This document shows positions 1,649 to 5,215 of a stretch of DNA of 5,215 nt, piece after piece. A program made the position numbers and the translations under genes. Location: IMG/VR virus record IMGVR_UViG_2778261347_000025. The stretch is one strand, 5' to 3'. This DNA comes from a virus (Duplodnaviria; Heunggongvirae; Uroviricota; Caudoviricetes). The notes under the pieces are model-generated. The model saw only the letters and a program-made list of their open reading frames with translations, had not been told where the DNA came from and did no database searches. The stretch's first letter is position 1; the number at the start of each line of letters is the position of its first letter.

Positions 1649-1858
1649 ATGCGTGAAATAAATGAAGATCGCGTAATCCGTGAGGATGAATGTCGTAAGT
1701 TAACTGGAGTGTGCCGCACTACACGTTACGAACTGGAGAAAAAAGGGCGCTTTCCGTCACGTCTTAATCTGGGCGGTCGTTCTGTAGGGTGGCTGCTGTC
1801 CGAGGTTATGGAATGGGTTAAAAGCAGGGATCGTATTAATTCAGGTAAGGCAGCGTAG
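1649..1858 (+). CDS. alpA: AlpA-family phage/island transcriptional regulator (69 aa)
   Basis: Sequence MREINEDRVIREDECRKLTGVCRTTRYELEKKGRFPSRLNLGGRSVGWLLSEVMEWV matches the AlpA helix-turn-helix pattern (..TG.SRST.Y.L...G.FP....LG.RSV.W...EV..W). ATG at 1649 has AGGT 6 nt upstream. The track ORF starts at GTG 1562, but that N-terminal extension is not AlpA-like and would make the protein longer than typical AlpA (about 70 aa). Confidence 0.85.
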   Translation: MREINEDRVIREDECRKLTGVCRTTRYELEKKGRFPSRLNLGGRSVGWLLSEVMEWVKSRDRINSGKAA

Positions 1859-1874
1859 GGGGAACATATGACAC

Positions 1875-1904
1875 ATAAAACAAAGGCGACCTGGGGCGGT
1901 CGCC
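1875..1904 (-). terminator. Rho-independent terminator, oriented for the minus strand (weakly bidirectional)
   Basis: GC-rich stem GGCGACC (1885-1891) / GGTCGCC (1898-1904) with a 6-nt loop. On the minus strand the stem is followed immediately by TTTGTTTTAT (1884-1875). On the plus strand, 26 nt after the alpA stop, the trailing tract is only AGTTTGG. Confidence 0.5.
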
Positions 1905-1968
1905 AGTTTGGAAACACTAAACATAAGCATGGCAATGATAGCCTCTATCAGGCTGGTGGGCAATGCTA

Positions 1969-2145
1969 TCAGTCTGTTTCAGTGCGTTGCCATAACTGCG
2001 AAGCTCTCTCCTTTGATGAGTATTCTTTAAGGTACTTCTCAAGGGCAAAAGAACACGGCGCGAATCGTTCTGATTCATGCTCTTTCTTTCTGCGTCGTCT
2101 TTTTCGTGCAGGTGATGTTTTTTCGGTTGATTCTTCGTTGGTCAT
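1969..2145 (-). CDS. Hypothetical small highly charged protein (58 aa), or the C-terminal part of a longer interrupted ORF
   Basis: Hand-translated minus-strand ORF, ATG 2145 to TGA 1969: MTNEESTEKTSPARKRRRRKKEHESERFAPCSFALEKYLKEYSSKERASQLWQRTETD. Below the 60-aa track threshold. No convincing Shine-Dalgarno. In the same frame as the upstream ORF 2382..2203. Terminator lies 64 nt downstream. Confidence 0.3.
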   Translation of the reverse strand: MTNEESTEKTSPARKRRRRKKEHESERFAPCSFALEKYLKEYSSKERASQLWQRTETD

Positions 2146-2202
2146 TGTGTGCGCCTGTAAAGCAATGCGCCGGAGTTCCTCACACCACGGCGCTGATAGT
2201 GA

Positions 2203-2382
2203 TTATTCTGATTCTTTGGCCTTGCGACGCTGGCGGCGTTTGATCTCGCCTCGCATGGCTGTAACGATAAATTGCGCAGTGCTCTCGCCTGTTTCTTTTA
2301 CTTGCTCCATAGCCTCAACAACTTCATGCGGGGCGCGAGCCTGTAATTTCTGTGATTTGTTATTGATATGGTCTCTTTCCAT
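2203..2382 (-). CDS. Small DNA-binding protein candidate with a ribbon-helix-helix-like pattern (59 aa)
   Basis: Hand-translated minus-strand ORF, ATG 2382 to TAA 2203: MERDHINNKSQKLQARAPHEVVEAMEQVKETGESTAQFIVTAMRGEIKRRQRRKAKESE. AAGGGA Shine-Dalgarno (2395-2390) 7 nt upstream of the ATG. Layout is a short basic N-terminal segment, helix, G-x-S turn, second helix with hydrophobic face, then a basic tail, as in Arc/CopG/MetJ-type RHH proteins (inferred by eye). The coding strand is purine-rich. Confidence 0.5.
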   Translation of the reverse strand: MERDHINNKSQKLQARAPHEVVEAMEQVKETGESTAQFIVTAMRGEIKRRQRRKAKESE

Positions 2383-2401
2383 TTCTGGTTCCCTTTGTGA
2401 T

Positions 2402-2483
2402 TACTGGAATCCAGTATACACGAAAAAGACCAAAACAAAACGCTTGAAGTGGATTCCACTTAGTGATTATACTGGAATCCAGT
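2402..2483. promoter_or_regulatory. Operator-like array of three palindromes sharing a TGGAWTCCA core
   Basis: Read directly: TACTGGA-A-TCCAGTA (2402-2416), AAGTGGA-T-TCCACTT (2447-2461), ACTGGA-A-TCCAGT (2471-2483). Centres at 2409, 2454 and 2477 give 45- and 23-bp spacing. Sites 1 and 3 share the upstream flank GTGATT(A). The array lies between the minus-strand ORF start (2382) and the plus-strand operon. Confidence 0.55.
2444..2473 (+). promoter_or_regulatory. Candidate sigma70 promoter for the plus-strand operon (TTGAAG -18- TATACT)
   Basis: -35-like TTGAAG (2444-2449) and -10-like TATACT (2468-2473). It overlaps palindromes 2 and 3. On the opposite strand a perfect TATAAT (reverse complement of 2466-2471) could be the -10 for the minus-strand unit. 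Hexamer matches only, no experimental support. Confidence 0.3.
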
Positions 2484-2578
2484 TGAGTGTTTATCACTCA
2501 ATGCAAACGAGGCTGAAAAGGATTGCCGTCCTTTCGCAGCCTCTGACCACCAACGATAGCGAAAGTATCGAGGTAGCT

Positions 2579-2782
2579 ATGAGAAATCATACCATACACC
2601 CGCAAGGGCGGGACTCGCACAACCTGAATAAATACATCTGGCGTTTTATCGCCCTGAGCACGGCACAACCGCGCGTGATTACCATCGAGGCCACCAGCGA
2701 ACAGGAAACGCGTCAGCAATCTCCTGATGGCTGCGTGATGGTATTCGCCGCCCGTATTCGTCAGGGGGTGTTCCATGCCTGA
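2579..2782 (+). CDS. Hypothetical small protein (67 aa), first gene of the primase operon
   Basis: ATG 2579 preceded by GAGGT (2570-2574). Translation MRNHTIHPQGRDSHNLNKYIWRFIALSTAQPRVITIEATSEQETRQQSPDGCVMVFAARIRQGVFHA, with E. coli-preferred codons (CTG, CCG, CGT, GCC, ACC). It is the 3' end of the track ORF 1868..2782. An in-frame ATG at 2501 (93 aa) lacks a ribosome-binding site. Confidence 0.5.
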   Translation: MRNHTIHPQGRDSHNLNKYIWRFIALSTAQPRVITIEATSEQETRQQSPDGCVMVFAARIRQGVFHA

Positions 2783-3095
2783 CATGACCAATTACCAGTA
2801 CCTGATTAATCCGCATTTTAACTGTGAGCATGATATTGCTAAAAAAGTTTATTCCGCTGCGGATGGGGCTACTGACAATATATCAATGGGTATTGCGTCA
2901 ATTGGTAGCCTGATGTGGCATGCGTCAGAAAATAAGGAATATGACGAAAAGACCATGCGCATTGATATGGGTAATATCGGTTTGTTACTGGCAATGCTTG
3001 GGCAGTTTGATATTTCGTTACGGTGCACCATTGAAAATGCCACAGATGCATTAAATGCCATAGAGAAAGCGAATACTGATTCAAATCGGGGATAA
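2775..3095 (+). CDS. Hypothetical acidic protein (106 aa)
   Basis: ORF track 2775..3095. AGGGGG (2763-2768) sits 6 nt upstream of ATG 2775. The start overlaps the previous stop by 8 nt (ATGCCTGA), indicating translational coupling. No family recognised by eye. Confidence 0.6.
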   Translation: MPDMTNYQYLINPHFNCEHDIAKKVYSAADGATDNISMGIASIGSLMWHASENKEYDEKTMRIDMGNIGLLLAMLGQFDISLRCTIENATDALNAIEKANTDSNRG

Positions 3096-3101
3096 ATAAT
3101 C

Positions 3102-3401
3102 ATGAGAACTTATTTATCTGGCTTGACTGCCAGCGGTTATGCACACCCCAAAATTATCCCCGGCGCTATTTATCTGGATAAGAACGGTAACAGAGTAACG
3201 GTAAAAGAACTGATGTTTGACCGTGTGTATTTTATCCGTGATGGCTATTCATTTCATAGTTCGCTGAACGTGGAGATCTTTATTAGCAGATTCAGGCGGG
3301 AAATCCCGCTTTCCAGAAATAACCATGTGTCATGTATCGATGTTGATAAAAAACTACAGGAACTGAAAAACATGATTGCCGCGTGGAGAGAGCAGAAATG
3401 A
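3102..3401 (+). CDS. Hypothetical protein (99 aa) immediately upstream of, and coupled to, the primase
   Basis: ORF track 3102..3401. GGGGA lies upstream of ATG 3102. Its TGA stop (3399-3401) overlaps the primase ATG (3398-3400) as ATGA. No family recognised by eye. Confidence 0.6.
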   Translation: MRTYLSGLTASGYAHPKIIPGAIYLDKNGNRVTVKELMFDRVYFIRDGYSFHSSLNVEIFISRFRREIPLSRNNHVSCIDVDKKLQELKNMIAAWREQK

Positions 3402-5215
3402 AAAAAGCGCCAAATTTAAAACACCAGCCACGTGACAAAATGACGGAAGTCATCATTTTTGCGGGTAGTGATGCGTGGGCACATGCGAAGCAGTGGCAGG
3501 AACAGGACGGGCGACTGGCTGGCGATAACGTGCCACCTGTCTGGCTTGGAGAGCAACAACTTGCCGAACTGGACAACCTGCAAATCGTACCGGACGGACG
3601 CTATCGCGTGCGTCTCTATCAGGCGGGGTTATTGAGTCCGGGGCTTGTTAATACCATCGGGCAGAAACTGGCAGTGGCAGGTGTCAGGGATGCTGATTAT
3701 TACCCTGAAGGAATGCACAGCCAGAAACGGGAGAACTGGCGCGAATATCTGGAACGTGAACGGGCAGAGCAGGCGGAAAAGAAAAAGGTAGTTGAACTGC
3801 CTGTAAAGAAAAAAGAGCGGGTAAAAGACGATAACGCTTCATCACTGGCGCTTAACCAGATGGGAGCAAGTCAACGCGGCGAAGTTCTCCTGGCACATTA
3901 TGGCGGTGAACTGGCGATTCATGCTGACTCTGACACTGTTCACTATTACAACGGCGTTGTATGGGAGCCAGTACAGGATAAAGAATTACAGCGAGCTATG
4001 GCACAGATTTTCATTGATGCGGAGATCAGCTATTCGCAGAACGCCATTAAATCGGCGGTCGATACCATGAAGTTAAGTTTGCCTGTAATGGGGAATACAG
4101 CCCGTAACCTGATTGGATTCAGTAACGGTGTTTTTGATACCCGGACAGGCGATTTTCGGGAGCATAACAAAAACGACTGGTTGTTAATTGCCAGTGAATT
4201 ACCTTTCAGCCCACCAGCAGAGGGGGAAACGCTGGCAACACATGCGCCGAATTTCTGGAAGTGGTTACGCCGTTCGGTGGCTGAGAATGACCGCAAGGCG
4301 GATCGCGTACTGGCTGCATTATTCATGGTGCTGGCGAACCGGTACGACTGGCAGTTATTCATTGAGGTAACAGGTCCAGGGGGAAGTGGTAAAAGCGTGA
4401 TGGCGGAGATTTGCACCATGCTGGCGGGTAAGGCCAACACGGTATCGGCAAGCATGAAGGCGCTGGAAGATGCCAGGGAACGCGCGTTAGTGGTTGGCTT
4501 TTCGCTGATTATCATGCCGGATATGACCCGTTACGCTGGTGATGGCGCAGGAATTAAGGCCATTACAGGCGGTGACAAGGTGGCAATCGACCCGAAGCAT
4601 AAAGCCCCCTACTCAACACGCATTCAGGCGGTAGTGTTGGCGGTGAACAATAACGCCATGTCATTCAGTGACCGCAGCGGGGGGATTTCACGTCGTCGGG
4701 TGATATTCAATTTTTCGGAGGTTGTACCGGAAAACGAACGCGACCCCATGCTGGCAGAAAAAATAGAAGGAGAGCTGGCGGTTGTGATTCGCCACCTGCT
4801 TACTCGTTTTTCTGACCAGGACGAAGCTAAACGCCTGCTGTATGAGCAGCAGAAATCAGAAGAAGCTCTGGTGATAAAACGCGAGGGCGATTCGCTGGTG
4901 GACTTCTGCGGCTATCTCATGTCGTCGGTAATGTGTGATGGTCTGTTAGTGGGTAATGCCGAAATTATTCCGTTCAGTCCGCGCAGGTATCTTTATCACG
5001 CCTATCTGGCATATATGAGGGCACACGGATTCGGTAAACCTGTAACACTGACGCGCTTCGGTAAAGATATGCCGGGGGCAATGGCGGAATATGGCAGGGA
5101 GTATATGAAACGGAAAACGAAGCACGGTTTGCGTTCAAATGTGACCCTGACAGAGGATTCAGAAGACTGGATGCCATCATGTGCATCGGTCACAAATGAC
5201 GATGGAAAAAATTAA
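3398..5215 (+). CDS. Replication protein: P4-family primase / SF3-helicase-type NTPase (605 aa)
   Basis: Track ORF 3383..5215 begins at a GTG; the more likely start is ATG 3398 (MKKAPNLKHQ...) with GGAGAG 7 nt upstream. Walker A GPGGSGKS at 4373-4396, followed by a hydrophobic-D segment LIIMPD (4505-4522), as in the phage/plasmid primase P4-family C-terminal domain. The N-terminal roughly 120 aa (EVIIFAGSDAW ... RDADYY) has an E...DxD pattern compatible with a small Toprim-like domain (tentative), then a K/E-rich linker. Stop TAA is at 5213-5215, the window end. Confidence 0.85.
   Translation: MKKAPNLKHQPRDKMTEVIIFAGSDAWAHAKQWQEQDGRLAGDNVPPVWLGEQQLAELDNLQIVPDGRYRVRLYQAGLLSPGLVNTIGQKLAVAGVRDADYYPEGMHSQKRENWREYLERERAEQAEKKKVVELPVKKKERVKDDNASSLALNQMGASQRGEVLLAHYGGELAIHADSDTVHYYNGVVWEPVQDKELQRAMAQIFIDAEISYSQNAIKSAVDTMKLSLPVMGNTARNLIGFSNGVFDTRTGDFREHNKNDWLLIASELPFSPPAEGETLATHAPNFWKWLRRSVAENDRKADRVLAALFMVLANRYDWQLFIEVTGPGGSGKSVMAEICTMLAGKANTVSASMKALEDARERALVVGFSLIIMPDMTRYAGDGAGIKAITGGDKVAIDPKHKAPYSTRIQAVVLAVNNNAMSFSDRSGGISRRRVIFNFSEVVPENERDPMLAEKIEGELAVVIRHLLTRFSDQDEAKRLLYEQQKSEEALVIKREGDSLVDFCGYLMSSVMCDGLLVGNAEIIPFSPRRYLYHAYLAYMRAHGFGKPVTLTRFGKDMPGAMAEYGREYMKRKTKHGLRSNVTLTEDSEDWMPSCASVTNDDGKN

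What the first reader, a model, noticed from the sequence alone, without database searches (positions are those of the whole stretch)
2396..2490. Three TGGAWTCCA palindromes form an operator-like array in the divergent control region ahead of the primase operon
Three near-identical 13-15 bp palindromes within 82 bp is well beyond chance and matches how dimeric repressors recognise operators. They sit between a divergent small minus-strand gene and the plus-strand operon, and overlap the best candidate -35/-10 hexamers on both strands. This is the layout of a phage-type immunity switch. For this island it would be the site where helper-phage derepression or AlpA-dependent activation of replication is decided. 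Which protein binds is not determinable from sequence.
Basis: partly seen in the sequence, partly recalled or inferred. Interest (0 to 1): 0.6.

Follow-up and report, generated by a model that had tools for sequence, protein, structure and literature searches.

The report
Repressor operator array of a phage satellite
The three repeats are real operator sites of a swappable repressor-operator cassette in E. coli phage satellites (PICIs), most likely bound by the small neighbouring YlcI protein, which would give these islands the repressor that had not been identified for them.

Summary
TGGAWTCCA occurs exactly three times (2405, 2450, 2473). About 0.03 matches are expected by chance, and there are none elsewhere in the 29-kb locus.

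The window is the left arm of an EcCICFT073-type PICI: int, alpA, ylcI (minus strand), Icd-like gene, DUF4222, primase.

In more than 40 related islands from many Enterobacterales genera, and in EcCICFT073 itself, three boxes sit at the same positions. Each box is TG-N5-CA. The five central bases match within an island but differ between islands, and they are often not palindromic.

Box 3 covers -8..+3 of the rightward promoter and box 2 lies in its spacer. Box 1 covers -8..+3 of the ylcI promoter.

The box core tracks the N-terminal segment of the 59-aa YlcI/YnfO protein, which is a predicted ribbon-helix-helix fold. It does not track AlpA or the Icd-like protein. Near-identical islands differ only by a roughly 250-320 bp cassette holding the ylcI 5' end and the boxes.

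Most likely YlcI represses the replication operon and its own gene, as in a lambda OR or P22 immI switch. No binding was tested.

A long ORF nested with the Icd-like gene, as in P4 eta/kil, suggests that AlpA-driven read-through bypasses the switch.

The parts
2402..2416 (.). Box 1 (family site C): TACTGGAATCCAGTA. It covers about -8..+3 of the leftward ylcI promoter.
   Evidence: Exact match. Sits next to the conserved GTATACTG. Its centre is 27 nt from the ylcI ATG in 38 of 41 loci.
2447..2461 (.). Box 2 (family site B): AAGTGGATTCCACTT. It lies in the spacer of the rightward promoter, about -31..-21, and touches the -35.
   Evidence: The spacing from box 2 to box 1 is 45 bp in 38 of 41 loci.
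2471..2483 (.). Box 3 (family site A): ACTGGAATCCAGT. It covers about -8..+3 of the rightward promoter.
   Evidence: The spacing from box 3 to box 2 is 22-25 bp or 35 bp across loci.
2444..2473 (+). Rightward promoter P_R: -35 TTGAAG (2444-2449), 18-nt spacer, -10 TATACT (2468-2473), predicted +1 near 2480. It drives the Icd-like to primase operon.
   Evidence: Consensus scan 9/12. The TTGA(A/C)G and TATA elements are conserved in relatives. EcCICFT073 has TTGACG-N17-TATAGT.
2413..2418 (-). -10 hexamer TATACT of the leftward ylcI promoter P_L, predicted +1 near 2406. There is no good -35.
   Evidence: The consensus GTA.TAcTG is nearly invariant next to site C. The consensus scan did not call it.
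2203..2382 (-). ylcI: a 59-aa YlcI/YnfO-family protein, predicted ribbon-helix-helix, and the candidate repressor that binds the boxes.
1969..2145 (-). A 58-aa very basic ORF downstream of ylcI, probably co-transcribed with it. Function unknown.
   Evidence: Annotated in RefSeq. Matches phrog_21027. Not found beside ylcI outside E. coli.
1885..1904 (-). Terminator-like hairpin followed by a T-run, ending the leftward ylcI transcript. The plus strand has no T-run here.
2483..2578 (+). Structured 5' leader of the rightward transcript: hairpin H0 (2483-2501), H1 (2509-2543), conserved CTGACCACCAA (2543-2553), H2 (2554-2570), then the SD and the ATG at 2579.
   Evidence: RNAalifold on 22 relatives: 10 of 14 pairs show compensatory changes. 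No Rfam family matches.
2579..2782 (+). Icd-like 67-aa gene, the first gene downstream of P_R.
   Evidence: NCBIfam NF033153. RefSeq annotation.
1868..2782 (+). A 304-codon ORF in the same frame as the Icd-like gene. It starts 9 nt after the alpA stop codon and runs through the antisense of ylcI and through the operator array, in an eta/kil-like nested arrangement.
   Evidence: The frame is open for at least 400 nt upstream of the icd ATG in 26 of 42 loci, against 2 and 0 loci for the other two frames.
1649..1858 (+). alpA, the AlpA-family regulator that is the known activator of EcCICFT073-type PICIs.
   Evidence: Pfam PF05930, E 1.7e-16. PMC6092414.

Best explanation
The three boxes are operators of a two-way transcriptional switch in an EcCICFT073-type phage satellite (PICI).

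The divergently encoded 59-aa YlcI/YnfO protein is probably a ribbon-helix-helix dimer. It would bind each 11-bp box, (C/G)TG-N5-CA(G/C), reading the central bases with its N-terminal beta-ribbon.

Boxes 2 and 3 lie in the spacer and over -8..+3 of the rightward promoter. Occupying them would block RNA polymerase and keep the Icd-like, DUF4222 and primase (replication) operon silent. Box 1 has the same geometry on the ylcI promoter and would give negative autoregulation.

The repressor N-terminus and its operators form an exchangeable specificity cassette with at least 10 types, so that co-resident islands do not cross-repress.

What is shown: the sites, their conserved positions, their covariation with YlcI, and the cassette exchange.

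What is inferred: binding, repression, and the escape route. The proposed escape route is AlpA-driven transcription from upstream that reads through a translated eta-like ORF, bypasses the operators and runs against ylcI.
For: Sites and context:
- Exactly three sites, against 0.03 expected.
- The same int-alpA-ylcI(-)-icd-primase synteny is seen in AR-0427, in EcCICFT073 and in many genera.
- An alignment of 43 upstream regions gives the consensus aggTG-N5-CAct ... aagTG-N5-cAC.TCAA ... GTA.TAcTG-N5-CAcc. The core is constant within a locus and differs between loci.
- Box spacing is fixed at 45 bp and 27 nt in 38 of 41 loci.

Covariation with YlcI:
- Pairs with at least 90% identity in the YlcI decamer K9-P18: 95 share the site and 16 do not. 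Pairs below 90%: 5 share the site and 704 do not.
- AlpA pairs at 90% identity or more: 29 share the site and 30 do not.
- Residue 14 carries the most information about the core. Residues 12, 14, 17 and 35 show little or no variation within a site type.

Cassette swaps:
- L018 and L034 (Proteus) have mostly 90-100% identical flanks and diverge only from about -170 to +150 around the ylcI ATG.
- E. coli GPEC1189 has the same backbone at the same attachment site, but carries KSQQLNARFP with GTGCGATTCAC boxes. The strongest divergence, covering the ylcI 5' end and the boxes, lies at window 2283-2527; a second lower-identity stretch lies at about 1890-2030.
- Xenorhabdus innexi holds four islands with four different cores.

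Fold:
- AF2 model pLDDT 84.
- The alignment to Arc is in register on the beta-strand.
- The G-E-S turn motif is visible directly in the sequence.
Against: - No binding or expression data exist; everything is comparative.
- Locus pairs are not phylogenetically independent, and the cassette also carries about 45 nt of leader (H0). A tightly linked element other than YlcI could therefore in principle covary as well.
- ylcI lies antisense to a conserved long ORF whose wobble positions coincide with its own, so codon-level selection tests cannot separate the two.
- The leftward promoter has no recognisable -35.
- Published work shows that AlpA alone induces EcCICFT073 (PMC6092414). Any YlcI repression must therefore be overridable.
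Confidence: 0.72

Rival explanations
1. AlpA binds the three boxes and activates the replication operon from them.
For: AlpA is the experimentally shown activator of EcCICFT073 genes (PMC6092414). It is an HTH DNA-binding protein encoded just upstream.
Against: AlpA segments are 96-100% identical between islands with unrelated box cores, for example L004 (GATTC) against L013 (TCAGC) against L038 (ATACA), and L018 against L034. Among pairs with at least 90% AlpA identity, 30 have different sites and 29 have the same site. A box in the spacer and one over -8..+3 are positions for repression, not activation.
Confidence: 0.05
2. Another protein binds the boxes: the Icd-like product (PHROG label 'transcriptional repressor'), the primase/Rep (boxes acting as iterons), a host factor or a helper-phage protein. 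On this view YlcI is a bystander.
For: phrog_6196 and phrog_1743 are labelled transcriptional repressor. Repeats near replication genes can be iterons. SaPI-type induction involves helper proteins.
Against: - The Icd-like protein and most of the next roughly 900 bp are 90-100% identical in L018 and L034, yet the boxes differ.
- In GPEC1189 most of the sampled stretch from the Icd-like gene to the start of the DUF4222 gene (window 2577-3277) is 94-100% identical to the window, yet the boxes differ.
- A host factor cannot explain four different cores in one Xenorhabdus innexi genome.
- A helper protein would not covary with the adjacent ylcI codons.
Confidence: 0.1
3. The boxes act mainly at the RNA level or through DNA structure (hairpins or cruciforms in the leader or the antisense transcript), not as protein operators.
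For: In this island each box is a perfect palindrome. The adjacent leader is structured, with covarying hairpins.
Against: In most relatives the box core is not palindromic (TCAGC, AATCG, GCACC), so no hairpin is conserved. What is conserved is the same sequence repeated at three fixed promoter-relative positions. Boxes 1 and 2 lie upstream of the predicted rightward +1.
Confidence: 0.03
4. The palindromes are chance or recent local duplications with no function.
For: None beyond the short length of the motif.
Against: The expected count is 0.03 against 3 observed. The architecture is conserved across more than 40 loci in many genera with concerted core changes. None of about 11 variable positions among four same-type E. 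coli islands falls inside a box.
Confidence: 0.01

Closest known systems
Phage lambda right operator (OR1-OR2-OR3 between PRM and PR, with CI and Cro)
   Same: Three similar operators lie between divergent promoters. Two overlap the lytic or replication-side promoter and one overlaps the repressor's own promoter. The region is exchanged among relatives as an immunity cassette, giving heteroimmunity.
   Different: The putative repressor here is a 59-aa RHH-like protein, not an HTH protein with a cleavable C-terminal domain. No Cro counterpart was identified. The box spacings are 23 and 45 bp. Cooperativity and induction were not tested.
Phage P22 immI region (Arc and Mnt ribbon-helix-helix repressors at the divergent Pant/Pmnt promoters)
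   Same: Small RHH repressors bind operators that overlap divergent promoters in a secondary immunity region. The beta-strand of YlcI aligns in register with Arc residues 5-29.
   Different: Sequence similarity is not significant (hhalign probability 20%). There is one protein and three boxes rather than two proteins and two operators. The controlled operon is replication, not an antirepressor. What I state about P22 comes from my own knowledge and was not checked here.
Omega repressor of plasmid pSM19035 (an RHH dimer on 7-bp heptads in direct or inverted orientation)
   Same: Short asymmetric boxes would each be recognised by one RHH dimer, and box orientation can be direct or inverted. Site A is inverted in L026, L038 and L042.
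   Different: The box is 11 bp with invariant TG/CA ends. There are only three boxes, separated by 22-45 bp rather than contiguous. No homology was shown. What I state about omega comes from my own knowledge.
Satellite phage P4 left operon (PLL-vis-eta/kil with internal promoter PLE and CI RNA immunity)
   Same: An AlpA/Vis homologue lies upstream. A long ORF starts next to it and contains an internal promoter. A short nested C-terminal gene is the first one translated from that promoter. A primase gene lies downstream (the P4 summary is in PMC10111431).
   Different: P4 immunity is an RNA (CI), and no C4, isrK or other Rfam family matches here. The phage collection contains no YlcI homologue, although P4's presence in that collection was not verified. 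Here the internal promoter carries protein-type operators, and an antisense repressor gene sits inside the long ORF.
SaPI/Gram-positive PICI master repressor Stl (Rpr) with its divergent stl-str control region
   Same: A satellite-encoded repressor is transcribed divergently from the excision/replication operon and is diversified among islands.
   Different: Stl proteins are larger HTH proteins inactivated by helper-phage proteins. [quoted passage not shown] No antirepressor is known for YlcI.

Membership tests
YlcI/YnfO family (NCBIfam NF041551) | Score above the curated cutoff of the family HMM | tested here: met
   72.3 bits against a cutoff of 30, E 2.4e-20, residues 9-50. RefSeq gives the same name.
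Ribbon-helix-helix (MetJ/Arc/CopG) DNA-binding fold | N-terminal beta-strand followed by two helices | tested here: inconclusive
   The AF2 monomer has helices at 19-28 and 35-58 and an N-terminal segment at pLDDT 64-80 that is not modelled as a strand. The strand forms only in the dimer, and the dimer could not be modelled here.
Ribbon-helix-helix (MetJ/Arc/CopG) DNA-binding fold | G-x-S/T/N turn between helix A and helix B | tested here: met
   G32-E33-S34 is read directly from the sequence. E33 is invariant, and G32 and S/T34 are mostly conserved in A1. The motif definition is from my own knowledge.
Ribbon-helix-helix (MetJ/Arc/CopG) DNA-binding fold | Structural or sequence similarity to solved or curated RHH proteins | tested here: inconclusive
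Ribbon-helix-helix (MetJ/Arc/CopG) DNA-binding fold | Sequence-specific DNA binding through the beta-ribbon | not testable with these tools
   Indirect only. Residues 12, 14 and 17 show little or no variation within a box type, and residue 14 carries the highest mutual information with the box core.
Phage-type immunity switch (tripartite operator between divergent promoters) | Repeated operators overlapping both divergent promoters, with the repressor gene on one side | tested here: met
   Box positions relative to the -35/-10 elements. ylcI is divergent from the operon. The promoters are predicted, not mapped.
Phage-type immunity switch (tripartite operator between divergent promoters) | Repressor and operators co-vary and are exchanged as a unit between otherwise similar elements | tested here: met
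Phage-type immunity switch (tripartite operator between divergent promoters) | Repressor binding, repression and inducibility | not testable with these tools
   Needs EMSA or footprinting and reporter assays.
EcCICFT073-type Gram-negative PICI | int-alpA-(regulatory zone)-primase synteny, with late genes such as terS or capsid, inserted at a chromosomal attachment site | tested here: met
   AR-0427 locus between yljB and clpS. EcCICFT073 has the same gene order, including ylcI and the Icd-like gene. Helper-dependent induction was not tested.
P4-type eta/kil nested genes with RNA immunity | A long ORF starting next to the alpA/vis homologue, containing an internal promoter and sharing its frame with a short terminal gene | tested here: met
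   ORF 1868-2782. The frame is open for at least 400 nt in 26 of 42 loci against 2 and 0 for the control frames.
P4-type eta/kil nested genes with RNA immunity | CI / C4 / isrK-type immunity RNA in the leader | tested here: not met
   No Rfam match at E of 1 or less anywhere in the window.
AlpA-binding sites | Site sequence tracks the AlpA variant | tested here: not met
   AlpA at 96% identity or more occurs with unrelated boxes in 29 locus pairs.

The most novel reading that the evidence does not exclude
AlpA-type Gram-negative PICIs, including the prototype EcCICFT073, carry an unrecognised master repressor. It is a modular YlcI-family ribbon-helix-helix protein with a three-box operator, in at least 10 exchangeable specificities. 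The cassette is embedded antisense inside a P4 eta/kil-like nested ORF. Induction would not need an antirepressor. Helper-triggered AlpA would drive translated read-through from upstream that both bypasses the operators and silences ylcI by convergent transcription.
Probability: 0.35. Interest if true: 0.75.

Novelty: new variant of a known kind. Interest (0 to 1): 0.62.

Why it matters
[quoted passage not shown] A later survey describes integration, Bro, replication and late zones and RNA immunity, but no protein repressor (PMC10111431). No paper in the searchable library assigns a function to YlcI/YnfO.

If YlcI is the repressor, several things follow:
- It would explain how these widespread islands stay silent. 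The cassette region matches 716 of 5426 complete E. coli genomes.
- It would explain why several islands can coexist in one genome.
- It would give a direct experimental handle: a 59-aa protein, an 82-bp operator region, and natural specificity swaps.
- The box and residue pairs form a small natural recognition table for an RHH family, which could be useful for orthogonal repressor design.

Tried and rejected
- Rfam scan of the whole window at E of 1 or less found nothing, so the leader is not a known C4, CI or isrK RNA.
- PDB sequence and profile searches with A1 and A3 gave no significant hit.
- Pfam gives only sub-threshold hits for YlcI.
- tblastn of YlcI against 50,697 phage records found no match.
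- The Icd-like protein and the control-region DNA hit only one record, the satellite-like vB_KppS-Ant. Homology to P4 kil could not be shown.
- The Forti 1999 paper on P4 eta/kil is not held, so the P4 comparison rests on the summary in PMC10111431 and on my own knowledge.
- My first guess for the EcCICFT073 position returned a lambdoid prophage.
- Automatic extraction of the first rightward ORF was noisy and had to be restricted by distance and motif.
- The reverse complement of the conserved leader motif CTGACCACCAA is not found elsewhere in the window, so no antisense target was found.
- K-12 ylcI (DLP12) has no three-box array upstream, so the array is not a general feature of the protein family.
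- The minus-strand promoter called by the scan (2493-2466) is not conserved in relatives, so I prefer the -10 next to box 1.
- Among four same-type E. coli islands, none of about 11 variable positions falls in a box. That is only weakly significant (about 0.08), so I did not lean on it.
- A dN/dS test to decide between ylcI and the antisense long ORF was rejected, because the wobble positions of the two frames coincide.

Full report
**The observation.** The window carries int (1-1239), alpA (1649-1858), two small minus-strand genes (1969-2145 and 2203-2382), and then a plus-strand operon: an Icd-like gene (2579-2782), a 106-aa ORF, DUF4222 and a primase (3398-5215). TGGAWTCCA occurs exactly three times, at 2405, 2450 and 2473. 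The expected count is 0.03, and none of 200 shuffles reached three. These are the only exact copies in the 29-kb chromosomal locus of E. coli O157 AR-0427, which is 99.9% identical to the window. The extended palindromes are 13-15 bp long and span 2402-2483. Boxes 1 and 3 share an identical 14-mer in inverted orientation.

**What the element is.** In AR-0427 the island sits between yljB/cspD and clpS, and it continues with terS and a major capsid gene. EcCICFT073 is the prototype Gram-negative phage-inducible chromosomal island. It has the same order: int, alpA, a small hypothetical gene (-), YlcI/YnfO (-), Icd-like (+), DUF4222, primase, capsid. The 59-aa minus-strand protein belongs to NCBIfam YlcI/YnfO (72 bits against a cutoff of 30). 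The library holds no paper that assigns this family a function.

**Comparative anatomy of the boxes.** A profile of YlcI homologues retrieved 47 loci from one-genome-per-species contigs. Most have the same int-alpA-ylcI-icd-primase neighbourhood. Forty-three upstream regions align almost without gaps. Their consensus, read towards ylcI, is aggTG-N5-CAct ... aagTG-N5-cAC.TCAA ... GTA.TAcTG-N5-CAcc.
- The five central bases are the same at all three positions within a locus but differ between loci. Examples are GAWTC here, TCAGC, AATCG, GCACC, TGGCC, TCGGA and AAATA.
- Most cores are not palindromic. In three types (L026, L038, L042) the promoter-distal box is inverted.
- The family-level site is therefore an 11-bp box with invariant TG/CA ends. 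This island's perfect palindrome is a special case.
- Spacing is rigid: site B to site C is 45 bp in 38 of 41 loci, the centre of site C lies 27 nt from the ylcI ATG in 38 of 41, and site A to site B is 22-25 or 35 bp.

**Relation to promoters.** The plus-strand promoter TTGAAG-18-TATACT (2444-2473) corresponds to conserved TTGA(A/C)G and TATA elements in relatives. EcCICFT073 has TTGACG-N17-TATAGT. Box 2 fills the spacer (about -31..-21), and box 3 covers about -8..+3. On the other strand, the nearly invariant GTATACTG places a -10 (2418-2413) directly next to box 1, with the same -8..+3 geometry. No good -35 is present there. These are positions from which bound proteins occlude RNA polymerase. 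This is an inference from standard promoter geometry, and the transcription starts were not mapped.

**Which protein binds.**
- The ten residues K9-P18 of YlcI predict the box. Pairs of loci with at least 90% identity in this decamer share the box in 95 cases and differ in 16. Pairs below 90% share it in 5 cases and differ in 704.
- For AlpA the corresponding split at 90% identity or more is 29 against 30, and the Icd-like protein is also uncoupled.
- AlpA segments identical over the aligned stretch occur with GATTC, GAGTA, TCAGC and ATACA boxes.
- Per-column analysis gives residue 14 the highest mutual information with the core. Residues 12, 14, 17 and 35 show little or no variation within a box type, whereas surface positions of helix A do vary.
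- These pairs are not independent, so the natural recombinants matter more. L018 and L034 (Proteus) have mostly 90-100% identical flanks and diverge only from about -170 to +150 around the ylcI ATG.
- E. coli GPEC1189 has the window's backbone at the same attachment site but carries KSQQLNARFP with GTGCGATTCAC boxes. The strongest divergence, which covers the ylcI 5' end and the boxes, lies at window 2283-2527; a second lower-identity stretch lies at about 1890-2030, over the 58-aa ORF.
- A third E. coli island has a 65-aa variant with TGTGCGCACA boxes.
- One Xenorhabdus innexi genome holds four islands with four different cores. That rules out a host factor.

**Mechanism proposed.** YlcI dimers would occupy boxes 2 and 3 to silence the replication operon, and box 1 to limit their own synthesis. 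In several types the autoregulatory box deviates by 1-2 bases from the other two, as expected for a weaker site. The cassette behaviour suggests heteroimmunity between co-resident islands.

[quoted passage not shown] A route that reconciles this with YlcI repression comes from a second feature.
- ORF 1868-2782 starts 9 nt after the alpA stop codon. It runs antisense through both small genes and through the operator array, and it shares its frame with the Icd-like gene.
- That frame stays open for at least 400 nt upstream of the icd ATG in 26 of 42 loci, against 2 and 0 loci for the other two frames.
- This is the layout of P4 eta/kil with the internal promoter PLE and the upstream PLL-vis, where translation of eta lets upstream transcription escape immunity (summary in PMC10111431).
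- The only strong terminator between alpA and the operon is on the minus strand. The plus strand has only a weak terminator-like site, at 2327-2345.

I therefore infer that AlpA-driven, translated read-through bypasses the operators and collides with ylcI transcription. This step is inference only.

**Other features.** The rightward leader (2483-2578) contains hairpins with compensatory changes in 10 of 14 predicted pairs. No Rfam family matches it.

**Novelty and verdict.** Operator arrays and RHH repressors are well known. A YlcI-family repressor-operator cassette in Gram-negative PICIs is not described in the searchable literature. The 2018 paper states that a global repressor in these elements is unclear. 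I class this as a new variant of a known kind, with interest 0.62. Three refinements apply: palindromy is incidental, YlcI rather than AlpA is the likely binder, and the binder can be inferred from sequence comparison.

Noticed in passing
window 1868-2782 (+): A 304-codon ORF starts 9 nt after the alpA stop codon. It runs antisense through hyp58 and ylcI and through the operator array, in the same frame as the Icd-like gene. The frame is open for at least 400 nt upstream of the icd ATG in 26 of 42 related loci, against 2 and 0 for the other frames. This is the layout of P4 eta/kil nested genes. The N-terminal 211 aa have no family hit.
   Followed up: partly
window 2483-2578 (+): The 5' leader of the rightward transcript is conserved and structured: hairpins at 2483-2501, 2509-2543 and 2554-2570, and an invariant CT(A/G)ACCAC motif. 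Compensatory changes occur in 10 of 14 predicted pairs across 22 relatives. No Rfam family matches and no complementary target was found in the window.
   Followed up: partly
L050 18654-18852 (EcCICFT073, NC_004431 about 1380653-1380851): The prototype PICI EcCICFT073 has its own ylcI (KSQALKARVP) and three GTGGGCCACAC-type boxes around a near-consensus promoter, TTGACG-N17-TATAGT. The small genes carry recent RefSeq locus tags and were probably absent from the original annotation.
   Followed up: yes
L051, L052, L053, L056 (E. coli islands at the yljB-clpS site and elsewhere): E. coli islands with nearly the same backbone carry different ylcI-operator cassettes (AATCG, TGCGC and TCGGA types). 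One island (L052) has an extra insertion of about 340 bp with an ash-family pseudogene between the leader and the Icd-like gene.
   Followed up: partly
window 1969-2145 (-) and 1885-1904 (-): A very basic 58-aa ORF lies downstream of ylcI. It is present in E. coli relatives only (phrog_21027). It is followed by a terminator-like hairpin that has a T-run only on the minus strand.
   Followed up: no
L005, L010, L011, L042 (Xenorhabdus innexi DSM 16336): One genome carries four islands of this family, each with a different box core (GAGTA, TCAGC, GCACC, AAATA) and a different YlcI N-terminal segment. This is consistent with heteroimmunity.
   Followed up: partly
L058 8252-8834 (E. coli K-12 DLP12, ylcI-nohD): K-12 YlcI is divergent from the terminase small-subunit homologue nohD. 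It resembles the 65-aa variant of L053. It has no three-box TG-N5-CA array upstream.
   Followed up: partly
L057 8182-9156 (Escherichia phage vB_KppS-Ant, LR881103): A 16.5-kb 'induced prophage' record has integrase, primase, capsid, portal and terminase genes and looks like a capsid-forming satellite. Its Icd-like segment is the C-terminus of a 324-aa ORF.
   Followed up: no
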